Positions 541 through 39,903 of a DNA stretch of 39,903 nucleotides are shown here, piece after piece. The notes beneath the pieces were generated by a model. The model worked only from the letters and a program-made list of their open reading frames with translations. It was not told the DNA's origin and made no database searches. Position numbers and translations under genes: made by a program. Within the stretch, counting starts at the first letter, position 1; each line of letters begins with the position of its first letter. This stretch comes from a virus. Its lineage: Duplodnaviria; Heunggongvirae; Uroviricota; Caudoviricetes. The stretch lies in IMG/VR virus record IMGVR_UViG_2654587728_000015. One strand, given 5' to 3'.

Positions 541-1578
541 TTAACGCTTATCCGCCACCAGTTTGAGCGCGTGTTCCAGCACATTAATGTCTGCACCCGC
601 TTTATGGGCATTTTCACTTAAATAACGCCGCCACTGCCGCGCGCCAGGAATACCCTGGAACAAGCCCAGCATATGCCGGGTAATATGGCCGAGATACGTA
701 CCCTGGCTGAGTTCACGCTCAATGTACGGATACATGGCGCGCACTACCGCCACCGGATCAGCATCAGTATCCGAGGAACCAAAAATCTCTCGGTCTACCG
801 CCGCCAGAATACCCGGATTCTGATACGCCTCGCGCCCGACCATCACGCCATCCATATGTTGCAAATGCGCTTTAGCTTCTTCCAGCGACTTGATACCACC
901 GTTAATCGACATCGTCAGATGCGGAAAGTCACGCTTCAGTTGATACACACGCGGATAATCGAGCGGCGGGATCTCACGGTTTTCTTTCGGACTTAACCCA
1001 GAAAGCCAGGCTTTACGTGCGTGGATGATGAACATCTCACACTCACCTTTGCCGGAAACGGTGTTGATGAAATCGCAGAGAAATTCATAGCTGTCCTGAT
1101 CATCGATGCCAATACGCGTTTTCACCGTCACCGGAATCGACACCACATCGCGCATCGCTTTCACGCAGTCGGCAACCAGCTGCGCATTACCCATCAGACA
1201 CGCACCAAACATGCCGTTCTGCACCCGGTCAGACGGGCAGCCGACATTCAGGTTGATCTCATCGTATCCACGCGCTTCTGCCAGCTTCGCACACTGTGCC
1301 AGCGCCGCCGGATCGCTACCCCCGAGTTGCAACGCTACCGGATGTTCTTCTTCACTGTACGCCAGGTAATCACCTTTACCGTGAATAATCGCCCCTGTGG
1401 TCACCATTTCGGTATACAGCAACGTATTGCGGGAAAGCAGACGCAAGAAATAACGGCAATGTCTGTCCGTCCAGTCGAGCATAGGAGCAATGCTAAACCG
1501 AGAATTCCAGTAAACACCAGTTTTTTCAGGCATCACGCTGGTTTGATTAATTTTTTGTGTTTCATGATTATCGTGCAT
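541..1578 (-). CDS. dusA: tRNA-dihydrouridine synthase A (host gene; 5' end is the known target of DusA-associated integrases)
   Basis: 345-aa ORF with Dus family motifs ([31 protein letters not shown]); divergent integrase immediately upstream. Confidence 0.9.
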
Positions 1579-1610
1579 TTTTGAACATTTCAGGCTATTT
1601 TTCTCGCGTT

Positions 1611-1666: not shown

Positions 1667-2764
1667 ATGGCGTACTATAACATAGAGAAACGACTAAAAT
1701 CCGATGGCACACCACGCTATCGCTGTAATGTGATTATCAAAGAAAAAGGTGTTATCACTTACAGGGAAAGCAAAACATTCCCTAAACATGCTCATGCCAA
1801 AACATGGGGCACACAGAAAGTGATGGAATTAGATCTATATGGCATTCCATCATCAAATGCAGTTGACGGACTTACAGTCCGTGACTTACTACACAAATAT
1901 TTAAATGACCCAAATGCCGGAGGTAAAGCAGGCCGTACTAAAAGATATGTGCTGGAACTGCTTATGGATAGTGACATCTCCGCGATCAAACTATCTGAAC
2001 TGACAGAAAATGACGTAATTGAACATTGCAGGCTAAGAAACAACGCTGGCGCAGGTCCAGCAACAGTCAGCCACGATGTTAGTTATCTTGGCAGTGTTCT
2101 GGATGCGGCCAAACCTGTATACGGAATTAATTACACATCAAACCCGGCGAAAAGTGCTCGTCCATATCTACTTAAACTTGGTTTGATTGGTAAATCAAAC
2201 CGTCGTAATCGTAGACCAGCATCTGATGAACTGGACATGCTCATTGAAGGCCTTCAACAACGATCTACTCATAAATGCTCAAAAATTCCGTTCGTTGATA
2301 TCCTCAAATTTTCTGTGTGGTCCTGTATGCGAATCGGAGAAGTATGCCGGTTACGATGGGAAGATCTCGACCAGGAACAAAAATCTATACTCGTAAGAGA
2401 CAGGAAAGATCCACGCAAAAAGGAAGGCAACCACATGAAAGTAGCCTTGCTTGGGGAAGCCTGGGATATCGTCCAACGACAGCCCAAAAAATCGGAATTC
2501 ATTTTTCCATATAACAGCACTTCTGTTACTGCGGGATTTCAGAGGGTAAGAAGCAAATTAGGTATTAAGGATCTGCGATACCATGATTTGCGTAGAGAAG
2601 GGGCAAGTCGCTTATTTGAGGCTGGTTTTAGTATTGAGGAAGTAGCCCAGGTTACAGGGCATCGTTCATTAAACGTGCTATGGCAGGTATATACCGAACT
2701 GTATCCGAAATCTTTACATAATCGTTTTGAAGAGCTCCAAAGGAGCAGAAATAAGACCCCTTGA
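1667..2764 (+). CDS. int: Tyrosine-type site-specific integrase (DusA-associated integrase family likely)
   Basis: 365-aa ORF; C-terminal catalytic region with R...HDLRR...GHRS...Y pattern; located at prophage end divergent from dusA; SD ACGAGG 7 nt upstream of ATG. Confidence 0.85.
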   Translation: MAYYNIEKRLKSDGTPRYRCNVIIKEKGVITYRESKTFPKHAHAKTWGTQKVMELDLYGIPSSNAVDGLTVRDLLHKYLNDPNAGGKAGRTKRYVLELLMDSDISAIKLSELTENDVIEHCRLRNNAGAGPATVSHDVSYLGSVLDAAKPVYGINYTSNPAKSARPYLLKLGLIGKSNRRNRRPASDELDMLIEGLQQRSTHKCSKIPFVDILKFSVWSCMRIGEVCRLRWEDLDQEQKSILVRDRKDPRKKEGNHMKVALLGEAWDIVQRQPKKSEFIFPYNSTSVTAGFQRVRSKLGIKDLRYHDLRREGASRLFEAGFSIEEVAQVTGHRSLNVLWQVYTELYPKSLHNRFEELQRSRNKTP

Positions 2765-38333: not shown

Positions 38334-38905
38334 TGAACAACTTAATGATCGACCTTGAGACGATGGGGAAAAATAAGGATGCACCGATCGTTTCCATTGG
38401 CGCGGTGTTCTTCACTCCAGAAACCGGAGACATCGGACAAGAATTCTATACGGTTGTTAGCCTGGAAAGTGCTATGGGGCAAGGAGCTACACCTGACGGC
38501 GATACCATCCTGTGGTGGTTGAAACAAAGCCCTGAAGCACGAGCTGCAATCTGTATTGATGATACTTTGTCGATCAGCGATGCTCTCTCAGAACTAAATC
38601 ATTTCATTAACCGGCACGCAGACAATACGAAATATTTAAAAGTCTGGGGTAACGGAGCCACCTTCGACAACGTAATTTTACGTGGAGCTTATGAGCGAGC
38701 AGGACAAATCTGCCCGTGGGCATACTGGAATGACCACGATGTACGCACGATCGTTACGCTTGGGCGTTCCATCGGATTCGACCCCAAAATGGACATGCCT
38801 TTCGATGGCGAACGGCACAACGCCCTGGCTGATGCCCGTCATCAGGCAAAATATGTTTCCGCTATCTGGCAGAAATTAATTCCTGCCACCAGCACAGAAT
38901 TATGA
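38333..38905 (+). CDS. DnaQ-like 3'-5' exonuclease (DEDDh family)
   Basis: ORF 38330..38905 with ATG 38333; motifs MIDLETMG, WGNGATFDNVIL, HNALADARHQAKY. Confidence 0.75.
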   Translation: MNNLMIDLETMGKNKDAPIVSIGAVFFTPETGDIGQEFYTVVSLESAMGQGATPDGDTILWWLKQSPEARAAICIDDTLSISDALSELNHFINRHADNTKYLKVWGNGATFDNVILRGAYERAGQICPWAYWNDHDVRTIVTLGRSIGFDPKMDMPFDGERHNALADARHQAKYVSAIWQKLIPATSTEL

Positions 38906-38941
38906 TTTTCCCGGGTGCAGCCGGTTTTGATGGAGAAAATT

Positions 38942-39223
38942 ATGAACACCTTGTTTTTACTGATGGCTGAATTCAATACCCCTAACATTGAACTCTCAGC
39001 AGTTAGCCAAAAGTACTTTGGCATGAGTCCAGCCACGGCAGAAGCAAAAGCAAACGCTTGTAAGTTGCCCGTTCCAACATATCGCATCGGCACATCACAA
39101 AAAGCAAAACGTTGCATCAATATTCAGGATCTTGCGGAATACATAGACAAAAGACGAGAAGAAGGACGTATCGAGTGGGAACAGGTCAGAACAAGCAAAC
39201 AGAAGGGCAAAGAACATCACTAA
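38942..39223 (+). CDS. PrtN-family / excisionase-like small DNA-binding protein (candidate recombination directionality factor)
   Basis: ORF 38915..39223 with ATG 38942 (SD GGAG); last gene of rightward operon, which in the circular phage lies next to attP/int. Confidence 0.45.
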   Translation: MNTLFLLMAEFNTPNIELSAVSQKYFGMSPATAEAKANACKLPVPTYRIGTSQKAKRCINIQDLAEYIDKRREEGRIEWEQVRTSKQKGKEHH

Positions 39224-39227
39224 ATAA

Positions 39228-39252
39228 AAAACCCGCCTAAAGGCGGGTTTTC
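39228..39252. terminator. Bidirectional rho-independent terminator (ACCCGCC-TAAA-GGCGGGT flanked by A-run and T-run)
   Basis: Perfect 7-bp GC stem between convergent genes. Confidence 0.75.
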
Positions 39253-39270
39253 AAAAAGCACCAGCTATGA

Positions 39271-39434
39271 TCATGCTGCTTTGCGACGACGAAGCTTACC
39301 CTGCTGCTCTTTACCAGAGACAGTAGCGTGAGTGAACGCATTAGGAGCAGCCTTCATCAGAACTTCAACAGCAGCACCCATACCTGCGAATGCTTTCATT
39401 GTGTCGAACTTAACCTGTGGCTTGGTTGCTTTTT
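39271..39434 (-). CDS. Small hypothetical protein (54 aa), convergent with phage early operon
   Basis: ATG with SD AGGAG 7 nt upstream; MEDQKATKPQVKFDTMKAFAGMGAAVEVL...; not in ORF track because under 60 aa. Confidence 0.45.
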
Positions 39435-39483
39435 GATCTTCCATAGAAAACTCCTGAAGTTATACCGAAACAATTCCTGTTGT

Positions 39484-39903
39484 TTACTCATCATCAATAG
39501 ATGATACGCAATATTTATTTTTAAATTTAAGGTTCTTTGGCGTAACTTCATCAGAGATATCAAAACCGTCCAGAATTCTATTGAATGTAGCTTCTGGCAT
39601 ATCATCATGAACAGAAATCTCACCCGATCGCTGCTTTCTAACCATGTTATCCACTCGCCAAATTATAGCTTCAGCGTAAACAACATAACTTGGATGCTTG
39701 ATAAAGCGATGATCACCAGAATTCAAGACGCAAGACGGATCGTGGGGGACACCATCCTTGATACTAGAAATATTAACAACTAAAACACAATAACAATCGT
39801 TAACGGGGTAATAAACAGGATCATTACAAATCACATGAAGATGATTGCATGGCCCAGTTGGGGCAAGCACAGTTCCTTTCCTGTATGGCTGATAATCCGT
39901 CAT
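39484..39903 (-). CDS. AT-rich hypothetical protein (139 aa), start coincides with window edge
   Basis: ORF with ATG at 39903; clearly AT-rich relative to neighbouring phage genes; Cys/His-rich N-terminal half. Confidence 0.5.
   Translation of the reverse strand: MTDYQPYRKGTVLAPTGPCNHLHVICNDPVYYPVNDCYCVLVVNISSIKDGVPHDPSCVLNSGDHRFIKHPSYVVYAEAIIWRVDNMVRKQRSGEISVHDDMPEATFNRILDGFDISDEVTPKNLKFKNKYCVSSIDDE

What the first reader, a model, noticed from the sequence alone, without database searches (positions are those of the whole stretch)
39224..39903. AT-rich two-gene cassette at the right edge, convergent with the phage early operon
After the bidirectional terminator there are two minus-strand genes: a 54-aa ORF with a good RBS and a markedly AT-rich 139-aa ORF that starts at the window edge. 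Neither resembles a family I recognise. Their composition and location at the far end of the prophage (where attR and accessory islands tend to lie) suggest horizontally acquired cargo, possibly the downstream end of a longer system continuing beyond the window. The expected displaced dusA 5' fragment is not visible here, so the prophage or an adjacent island probably extends past 39903.
Basis: inference. Interest (0 to 1): 0.6.

Follow-up and report, generated by a model that had tools for sequence, protein, structure and literature searches.

The report
Prophage-borne PanA–PanT toxin–antitoxin cassette
The AT-rich 139-aa gene at the window edge is the likely toxin half of an already catalogued Panacea-type (PanAT) toxin–antitoxin pair, whose antitoxin gene lies just beyond the window, and the small 57-aa gene next to it is an unrelated conserved phage gene, so the finding is real but ordinary.

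Summary
Both minus-strand ORFs exist, but they are not one cassette.

**The 57-aa ORF (not 54 aa; 48% GC).** It belongs to phrog_2741. It never accompanies PanAT elsewhere and normally travels with a phrog_4350 gene.

**The cassette.** A 1208-bp PanAT cassette replaces that partner gene, starting 13 nt upstream of the 57-aa start codon. It occurs in 207 of 5426 complete E. coli genomes. In the three genomes whose neighbourhood I inspected it lies at the right end of the dusA prophage.

**The prophage end.** The displaced dusA 5' fragment and attR lie about 825 bp beyond the window.

**Verdict.** This is a new, untested member of a known kind.

The parts
39484..39903 (-). panT: 139-aa putative toxin of a PanAT type II toxin-antitoxin pair (Kurata 2022 toxin cluster T6, MazF-like fold). 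The true start is the ATG at 39903..39901. RefSeq/PGAP calls a shorter 128-aa product from the GTG at 39870.
39900..39903 (-). ATGA overlap. The TGA stop of panA (39902..39900; the rest of panA lies outside the window at window-equivalent 39900..40472) overlaps the ATG of panT. This implies translational coupling.
   Evidence: Sequence. The panA CDS is annotated in NZ_AP022098.1. PF13274 SocA_Panacea at 2.2e-19.
39458..39903 (.). The in-window part of the 1208-bp swap-in PanAT cassette (window-equivalent 39458..40665). The left junction with the conserved phage backbone is at 39457/39458.
   Evidence: blastn of SKA5 against mEp460: homology ends at L003 3558 and resumes at L003 4767. Cassette GC is 40.7%.
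39271..39444 (-). p57: a 57-aa conserved small phage protein (phrog_2741), basic (pI 10.2). It is not part of PanAT, but here it is probably co-transcribed with it.
   Evidence: phrog_2741 at 8e-36. 48 homologues, almost all 57 aa, among named sources only Enterobacterales. 14 synonymous against 5 non-synonymous codon differences from the Enterobacter copy. Absent from all PanAT loci outside the three E. coli phage loci. Paired with phrog_4350 elsewhere. AF2 model is low confidence, pLDDT 62.
39451..39455 (-). Shine-Dalgarno sequence AGGAG of p57, 6 nt upstream of its ATG. It lies just inside the backbone side of the cassette junction.
   Evidence: Sequence. Junction position.
39227..39252 (-). 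Intrinsic terminator hairpin shared by the convergent xis (PrtN-family, + strand) and p57 (- strand) transcripts. It is strong on the minus strand and weak on the plus strand.
   Evidence: Terminator scan, as L001 12353..12328. Only sub-threshold Rfam hits fall on this hairpin.

Best explanation
The 139-aa ORF is panT, the toxin gene of a two-gene PanAT type II toxin-antitoxin module. Its partner panA encodes a 190-aa stand-alone Panacea/DUF4065 protein with a variable C-terminal tail of about 35 aa. panA lies immediately upstream, just outside the window, and overlaps panT by ATGA.

The pair, with about 190 bp of its own upstream DNA, forms a 1.2-kb AT-rich cassette. The cassette sits between the phage backbone (xis, p57) and attP/attR of a dusA-integrating lambdoid prophage of the SKA5 / mEp460 type. 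There it replaces a different cargo gene (phrog_4350).

Inferred mechanism, from the validated P. moraviensis homologue and from the fold:
- PanT is a MazF-fold protein that blocks translation, most likely as an endoribonuclease.
- PanA binds and neutralises it directly.
- Loss or inactivation of PanA, for example on infection by another phage or on loss of the prophage, frees PanT and arrests the cell. The cassette would then serve as a prophage-borne abortive-infection or addiction module.

The 57-aa gene downstream is an unrelated conserved small phage protein that the cassette swap left in place. It now probably rides on the panAT transcript.

Shown here: gene structure, the Panacea domain, conserved synteny, homology to the T6 cluster, the fold, the cassette boundaries and the distribution. 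Inferred: toxicity, RNase activity, neutralisation and biological role.
For: - panA carries PF13274 at 2.2e-19, above Pfam's cut-off. The ATGA overlap is visible in the sequence.
- In all 30 loci with enough upstream DNA, a PanA homologue abuts or overlaps the toxin homologue on the same strand. These loci include E. coli, Yersinia, Klebsiella, Pseudomonas and Vibrio phages and Gamma-, Alpha- and Betaproteobacterial genomes.
- Kurata 2022 Dataset S1 lists PanA + T6 pairs (order antitoxin then toxin, overlap -4 or -1) in Pantoea septica LMG 5345 and strain 2016-Iso4. In exactly these genomes my scan found PanA-adjacent homologues, 56% and 55% identical to the window protein.
- A P. moraviensis protein (P0368, SDU72800.1) is 43% identical over 120 aa, E 6e-34.
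- The P. moraviensis T6 toxin was toxic, neutralised by PanA, pulled down PanA and specifically inhibited 35S-Met incorporation (PMC8832971).
- The cassette is 1208 bp with precise junctions and 40.7% GC. It is in 207 of 5426 complete E. coli genomes, single copy and chromosomal. In the three E. coli chromosomes whose neighbourhood I inspected it lies at the right end of the dusA prophage. It is also present in the phage records SKA5 and Lys8385Vzw.
Against: - Nothing here tests toxicity. Kurata et al. found several phage or prophage PanT candidates of another cluster (T1), including one from E. coli MOD1 and one from Salmonella phage Emek, to be non-toxic in E. coli.
- No sequence-level link to MazF/PemK was found: no Pfam hit for 61 diverse family members, no PDB sequence hit, and hhalign probability 0.5% against a small MazF/Kid/EndoA alignment.
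- The family's invariant or near-invariant residues (H21, D55, C58, G63, H65) are not the MazF Arg/Thr pair. The protein is acidic (pI 5.6), unlike MazF.
- PADLOC has no model matching either protein. A defence role is pure inference.
- I could not confirm that P0368 carries the accession WP_083201923.1 used in the paper.
- No convincing promoter was found. The scan gave 3 sites against 4.2 expected by chance.
Confidence: 0.72

Rival explanations
1. One reading: the 139-aa and the small ORF form one two-gene, or with panA one three-gene, functional system in which the 57-aa protein is a third component such as a regulator, chaperone or second antitoxin.
For: All genes are on the same strand. 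Only 39 nt separate panT and p57, with no terminator between them. The single terminator follows p57. p57 keeps its own RBS. Tripartite TA systems exist (PMC8832971).
Against: p57 homologues are absent from all 27 PanA-toxin loci outside the SKA5-type E. coli phages. p57 occurs without PanAT in mEp460, in Salmonella and in Enterobacter prophages, each time about 180-190 nt downstream of a phrog_4350 gene. The homology break lies 13 nt upstream of its ATG. Its GC content differs from that of the cassette.
Confidence: 0.07
2. PanT is a CcdB-like poison of DNA gyrase, or another non-RNase protein on the MazF/CcdB scaffold, rather than a translation-blocking ribonuclease.
Against: All top structural hits are MazF/Kid, not CcdB. 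The homologous P. moraviensis toxin specifically inhibited protein synthesis, not DNA synthesis (PMC8832971).
Confidence: 0.1
3. The pair is not a toxin-antitoxin system in E. coli. The 139-aa protein is harmless, and the conserved Panacea + 139-aa pair does something else for the phage, such as sensing or counter-defence.
For: Several predicted PanAT pairs from phages were not toxic when tested. Ernits et al. suggest Panacea may be a sensor domain (PMC10440598). There are no defence-database hits.
Against: A 43%-identical homologue with the same partner and gene order is an experimentally validated TA. The strict pairing with 4-nt overlap across phyla is typical of TA modules.
Confidence: 0.12

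Closest known systems
PanAT toxin cluster T6, validated member Pseudomonas moraviensis PanA:PanT (Kurata et al. 2022, PNAS, PMC8832971)
   Same: Stand-alone Panacea antitoxin of about 185-190 aa that begins M(I)F.E.KVAQ. Order antitoxin then toxin, with 1-4 nt overlap. Toxin of about 132-139 aa, 43% identical. Predicted MazF/PemK-like fold. No Pfam or CDD hit.
   Different: The E. coli pair is untested. It is carried on a 1.2-kb cassette at the attR end of a dusA-integrating lambdoid prophage, whereas the P. moraviensis locus is marked 'NotPhage' in Dataset S1. It is followed here by an unrelated 57-aa gene.
MazEF / Kis-Kid (PemIK) type II TA endoribonucleases
   Different: No detectable sequence or profile similarity. 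The antitoxin is a Panacea domain, not an AbrB/RHH MazE. The conserved residues are His/Asp/Cys/His, not Arg/Thr. The toxin has about 30 extra residues, including a long conserved loop (48-71) and an extra C-terminal helix, and it is acidic.
SocAB (Caulobacter type VI TA, SocA = DUF4065)
   Same: The antitoxin carries the same Pfam domain (SocA_Panacea).
   Different: The NCBIfam SocA equivalog scores 14 bits against a cut-off of 190. The toxin here has a MazF-like fold. I did not compare it with SocB. From my own knowledge, SocB is a replication inhibitor that binds DnaN, and SocA acts as a ClpXP adaptor rather than an inhibitor.
Cargo ('moron') slots next to attP in lambdoid prophages
   Same: A variable, AT-rich, separately acquired cassette between the recombination genes and the attachment site, with alternative occupants in related phages (PanAT in 207 E. 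coli genomes, phrog_4350 in 357).
   Different: No defence or exclusion phenotype has been shown for either occupant.

Membership tests
PanAT (Panacea-antitoxin type II TA systems) | The partner protein carries the Panacea/DUF4065 domain (Pfam PF13274) | tested here: met
   L001:13001-13573(-) scores 70.9 bits, E 2.2e-19, against a cut-off of 25.7. The same holds for partners in four other phages. The gene lies outside the window apart from its stop codon.
PanAT (Panacea-antitoxin type II TA systems) | [quoted passage not shown] | tested here: met
   ATGA overlap here. PanA directly upstream in 30 of 30 informative loci across three proteobacterial classes and several phage types.
PanAT (Panacea-antitoxin type II TA systems) | The toxin belongs to a described PanT cluster (T6) | tested here: met
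   Homologues were found next to PanA in Pantoea septica LMG 5345 and strain 2016-Iso4, genomes listed under T6 in Dataset S1. 43% identity to a P. moraviensis protein. I could not check that the accessions are the same.
PanAT (Panacea-antitoxin type II TA systems) | The toxin arrests growth, and the cognate PanA neutralises it and binds it | not testable with these tools
   Shown only for the P. moraviensis homologue (PMC8832971).
MazF/PemK/Kid endoribonuclease family (Pfam PF02452) | Sequence match to the family profile | tested here: not met
   No PemK hit for the window protein or for any of 61 diverse relatives. No PDB sequence hit at E <= 10 other than noise.
MazF/PemK/Kid endoribonuclease family (Pfam PF02452) | MazF/CcdB-type SH3-like barrel fold with a C-terminal helix | tested here: met
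MazF/PemK/Kid endoribonuclease family (Pfam PF02452) | Catalytic Arg and Thr/Ser (E. coli MazF R29/T52) in equivalent positions | tested here: inconclusive
   No residue-level structural alignment or model coordinates were available. By eye, H21/H23 in strand 2 and S46/S47 at the end of strand 3 occupy the corresponding strands. The family-wide conserved residues are H21, D55, C58, G63 and H65.
MazF/PemK/Kid endoribonuclease family (Pfam PF02452) | Sequence-specific RNA cleavage | not testable with these tools
   Only inhibition of translation by the P. moraviensis homologue is published.
SocAB type VI TA | The antitoxin matches the SocA equivalog model | tested here: not met
   NF047745 scores 14.4 bits against a cut-off of 190.
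Catalogued anti-phage defence systems (PADLOC-DB 2.0) | Any component matches a defence-system model | tested here: not met
   No hits for PanA, PanT or p57 at E <= 1.

The most novel reading that the evidence does not exclude
The T6 PanT family has 2682 representatives at 50% identity and no Pfam model. It may not be a MazF-type RNase at all. It could be a MazF-scaffold enzyme with a different active site built from the invariant or near-invariant H21, D55, C58 and H65, either a metal site or a Cys-His-Asp-like centre in a family-specific loop. In E. coli it might act as a prophage-encoded abortive-infection effector released when PanA senses an incoming phage.
Probability: 0.15. Interest if true: 0.6.

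Novelty: new member of a known kind. Interest (0 to 1): 0.3.

Why it matters
The finding puts a name and a testable mechanism on a 'hypothetical protein' pair present in about 4% of complete E. coli genomes, including APEC and STEC strains, and in inducible phages.

It corrects the RefSeq start of the toxin gene. The product is 139 aa, not 128 aa, and it is translationally coupled to panA.

It shows that the attP-proximal slot of dusA-integrating phages is a swap site with at least two alternative cargos.

If PanAT proves to be a defence or addiction module, this would be a natural E. coli system for studying how a stand-alone Panacea domain controls a MazF-fold toxin. As it stands, it is an expected kind of prophage cargo.

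Tried and rejected
- Pfam, NCBIfam and PADLOC scans of both window proteins gave nothing meaningful. The ICMT and DapC hits are sub-threshold noise.
- HMMER profile searches of PDB sequences with a 27- and a 61-sequence alignment gave only noise.
- hhalign of the family profile against MazF/Kid/EndoA found no similarity.
- The Rfam scan of the cassette and its flanks gave only sub-threshold hits on the terminator hairpin.
- The promoter scan upstream of panA found one 9/12 match (TTGACC-17-TAAACT, L001 13728..13700), but the total number of sites is below chance expectation. No promoter-like site lies between panT and p57.
- The search for operator-like repeats upstream of panA found only an 8-nt inverted repeat and a 9-nt palindrome, which are unconvincing.
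- The AF2 model of p57 has pLDDT 62, too low for a fold search.
- The afdb50 fold library was unavailable.
- The accessions WP_014640052 and WP_000458584 are not in the held parts of the supplements of either PanAT paper.
- I considered and rejected the following: a host core gene (the cassette is in 3.8% of genomes), a SocAB equivalog, and a tripartite system that includes p57.

Full report
**What is in the sequence**

The last 680 bases hold a terminator hairpin at 39227-39252 and two minus-strand ORFs.
- The first ORF is 39271..39444. It is 57 aa, not 54, and has an AGGAG 6 nt upstream of its ATG.
- The second ORF is 39484..39903. It is 139 aa and its ATG is the last three bases of the window.

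Only the 139-aa ORF is AT-rich. It has 38.6% GC and a GC3 of 31%, against a window mean of 51.3%. Only 1.6% of 420-nt windows are as low. The 57-aa ORF has 48.3% GC.

The hairpin is followed by T6ATTT on the minus strand but by only TTTT on the plus strand. It is therefore a good terminator for the small ORF and a weak one for the convergent xis gene. That xis gene is PrtN-family (PF11112 and the phrog_1300 excisionase family).

**Beyond the window edge**

The 1004 bases 38900-39903 are 100% identical to many E. coli chromosomes. In NZ_AP022098.1 (locus L001; window coordinate = L001 coordinate + 26899) the next gene upstream on the minus strand is annotated 'Panacea domain-containing protein'. 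It is 190 aa and occupies window-equivalent 39900..40472.

After that gene comes about 250 nt of intergenic DNA. Then comes a pseudogene fragment of the dusA 5' end (window-equivalent 40726..40830). Then come the host genes for a DUF2713 protein, zur, yjbJ, dinF and lexA.

The protein matches Pfam PF13274 SocA_Panacea at 2.2e-19. Its TGA stop (39902..39900) overlaps the ATG of the 139-aa ORF as ATGA.

At the left end of the window there is an intact dusA gene (541..1578, minus strand) and a tyrosine integrase (1667..2764). The 5' 107 nt of that dusA gene (1581..1475) are 81% identical to the displaced fragment. The similarity ends at ...ATGCTCGA, which is the crossover.

So the prophage runs from about 1475 to about window-equivalent 40727.

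**True start of the 139-aa gene**

RefSeq/PGAP annotates a 128-aa product from the GTG at 39870. An alignment of 27 homologues shows conserved P6, invariant G10 and conserved L13, all upstream of or at that GTG. The PHROG profile aligns from residue 6. The SKA5 phage record annotates the full 420-nt CDS. The ATG at 39903, coupled to the panA stop, is therefore the real start.

**The pair is a conserved two-gene module**

The 139-aa protein has 62 close relatives, all labelled 'hypothetical', from Enterobacterales, Vibrio and Shewanella. A profile search finds 2682 representatives at 50% identity with E <= 1e-3, and 910 with E <= 1e-10. None of 61 diverse members matches any Pfam family.

I collected loci from phage records and from one-genome-per-species contigs. 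I then searched all their ORFs with HMMs built from PanA, the toxin family and the 57-aa protein.
- In every locus with enough upstream DNA (30 of 30), a PanA homologue of 184-194 aa lies directly upstream of the toxin homologue, on the same strand, abutting or overlapping it.
- These loci include Yersinia phage YeP1, Pseudomonas phage Sirocco (P2-like), Klebsiella phage ST13-OXA48phi12.5, a 14.5-kb Vibrio element, and Gamma-, Alpha- and Betaproteobacterial genomes.
- Pfam confirms the Panacea domain in the four phage partners I tested.
- The PanA partners share a conserved core (residues 1 to about 155) and a variable tail of about 35 residues.

**Link to the published PanAT family**

Kurata et al. 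2022 (PMC8832971) defined PanAT systems and validated ten pairs.
- Their toxin cluster T6 has the order antitoxin then toxin, with an overlap of -4 or -1. It includes the P. moraviensis pair. HHpred called that toxin EndoA/PemK/MazF-like. It was toxic, was neutralised by PanA, co-purified with PanA and specifically inhibited protein synthesis.
- Dataset S1 also lists T6 pairs in Pantoea septica LMG 5345, strain 2016-Iso4, Proteus vulgaris, Pluralibacter, Photorhabdus and others.
- My genome scan found PanA-adjacent homologues of the window protein in P. septica LMG 5345 (56% identity) and in strain 2016-Iso4 (55% identity).
- A P. moraviensis protein is 43% identical over 120 residues, E 6e-34. 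It is P0368 (SDU72800.1), 132 aa, from a 6.09-Mb contig.
- The E. coli PanA starts MFCEEKVAQ. This resembles the corrected N-terminus MIFSEQKVAQ of the P. moraviensis PanA.

I could not retrieve WP_083201923.1 itself, so the identity of P0368 with the tested protein is very probable rather than proven. The E. coli accessions are not in the held parts of the two papers' supplements.

**Fold**

AlphaFold2 with the 27-sequence alignment gives pLDDT 89.9 and pTM 0.83. The model has a beta-barrel core, a long ordered loop (residues 48-71) and three helices.
- Foldseek against PDB: the top 47 hits are all MazF/Kid. Probabilities are 0.97-1.00 for the best 26, and TM-scores are about 0.45-0.6 for most.
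- Foldseek against viral models: PemK-like proteins and endoribonucleases are on top.

At the sequence level there is no link. PDB profile searches and an hhalign against a small MazF/Kid/EndoA alignment are negative.

The residues conserved across the wide family are H21 (invariant), L22, D55, C58, G63, H65, F67, S72, Y76, G113 and S117. This is not the MazF Arg/Thr signature. The protein is also acidic (pI 5.6). So the fold is MazF-like, while membership of the MazF sequence family and its catalytic chemistry are not established.

**The 57-aa gene is a separate entity**

It belongs to phrog_2741. Its homologues are almost all 57 aa and 67-100% identical. Those with a named source are all from Enterobacterales: Escherichia, Salmonella, Enterobacter, Atlantibacter, Cronobacter, Franconibacter and Hafnia. 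Comparison with the Enterobacter copy shows 14 synonymous and 5 non-synonymous codon differences, so it is a real coding gene.

It is absent from every PanA-toxin locus outside the three E. coli phage loci.

Outside the PanAT-carrying E. coli phages it lies about 180-190 nt downstream of a 177-179-aa gene of phrog_4350, which has no Pfam or PADLOC hit. This holds in phage mEp460 (gp23-gp24) and in Salmonella dusA prophages. It also holds in Enterobacter prophages, where the pair sits in a quite different position between a DUF968 gene and the methylase and lysis genes.

The AF2 model has low confidence (pLDDT 62). It shows a central helix at residues 15-37 with disordered tails. The protein is basic (pI 10.2) and always ends in ...AA.

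**Cassette boundaries and distribution**

blastn of phage SKA5 against mEp460 shows about 98% identity up to 13 nt upstream of the p57 ATG (window 39457). Identity resumes 193 nt upstream of panA (window-equivalent 40666). Between these points, 1208 bp (panT, panA and their upstream region; 40.7% GC) in SKA5 replace 803 bp (the phrog_4350 gene and its flanks) in mEp460.

The PanAT cassette is in 207 of 5426 complete E. coli genomes, single copy and never on plasmids. The alternative cassette is in 357. In the three chromosomes whose neighbourhood I inspected, PanAT sits at the right end of the dusA prophage, with the same flanking genes.

Identical copies occur in the phage records SKA5 and Lys8385Vzw. 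In the circular phage the order is xis, then p57, panT and panA on the opposite strand, then attP (with the surrogate dusA 5' end), then int.

**How it most likely works**

Shown: the gene structure, the Panacea partner, the conserved pairing, the homology to T6, the fold and the cassette nature.

Inferred:
- PanA binds and neutralises PanT.
- Free PanT blocks translation, most likely by RNA cleavage.
- The cassette benefits the prophage as an abortive-infection or addiction module.
- p57 is co-transcribed only because the cassette swap removed its original upstream region. No terminator and no promoter-like site lies between panT and p57.

Caveats:
- This pair has not been tested experimentally.
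- Several phage-borne PanT candidates of another cluster were not toxic in E. coli.
- No defence-database model matches.
- No convincing promoter or operator was found.

**Verdict**

The 139-aa ORF is the toxin gene of a known type of TA system whose antitoxin lies just outside the window. The small ORF is a neighbour, not a partner.

Novelty is 'new member of a known kind'. The most interesting residue of uncertainty is the non-MazF set of conserved His/Asp/Cys/His residues in a large family that has no Pfam model.

Noticed in passing
window 39271-39444 (-); L002 3372-4275; L036-L044: The 57-aa gene (phrog_2741) recurs as a pair with a 177-179-aa gene of phrog_4350 about 180-190 nt upstream. 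The pair sits next to attP in mEp460 and in Salmonella dusA prophages, but between DUF968 and the methylase and lysis genes in Enterobacter prophages. This looks like a mobile two-gene unit of unknown function. By eye the phrog_4350 protein has a GNAT-like motif, but no Pfam hit supports this.
   Followed up: partly
window 39271-39444 (-), C-terminus of the product: All 17 aligned p57 homologues end in ...KAA, ...IAA or ...VAA after a basic stretch (RRRKAA). This resembles ssrA/MuA-type ClpX recognition tails, so p57 may be a labile protein. This is speculative.
   Followed up: no
window 39870 vs 39903 (-): RefSeq/PGAP (WP_014640052.1) starts the toxin gene at a GTG 11 codons too far downstream. 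This removes conserved residues, including invariant G10. The ATG at 39903 overlaps the panA stop as ATGA.
   Followed up: yes
window 541-1581 (-) and 1667-2764 (+); L001 13827-13934: The prophage supplies a surrogate 5' end for dusA (window 1581..1475), 81% identical to the displaced host 5' fragment. This keeps dusA intact after integration, which I recall (my own knowledge, Farrugia et al. 2015; only the abstract of that paper was seen) as typical of the dusA-specific integrase family. The crossover lies at ...ATGCTCGA.
   Followed up: partly
L040 4381-4848 (Salmonella prophage): In one Salmonella variant an extra HTH_31/2TM gene is inserted between the p57 gene and xis. This is a further sign that the xis-attP interval is a cargo hotspot.
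   Followed up: no
L007 1-958 (Vibrio element PQ189310.1): A PanA-T6 pair sits at the extreme end of a 14.5-kb Vibrio element. The record classifies it under Vinavirales, yet it carries a LexA-like repressor, an excisionase and a P2 gpA-like replication gene. The taxonomy label looks odd for that gene content.
   Followed up: no
protein collection, cluster 7: The 190-aa PanA and the 128-aa PanT were reported in the same 90%-identity cluster of the protein database, although they are unrelated in sequence. This is probably a clustering artefact caused by a read-through or fused gene call.
   Followed up: no
PanT residues H21, D55, C58, H65 (window 39843-39841, 39741-39739, 39732-39730, 39711-39709, minus strand): Across 61 diverse family members, H21 is the only invariant residue. 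D55, C58, G63 and H65 are conserved in at least 90%. Most lie in a family-specific loop that is absent from MazF. This could be a metal site or an alternative active site.
   Followed up: partly
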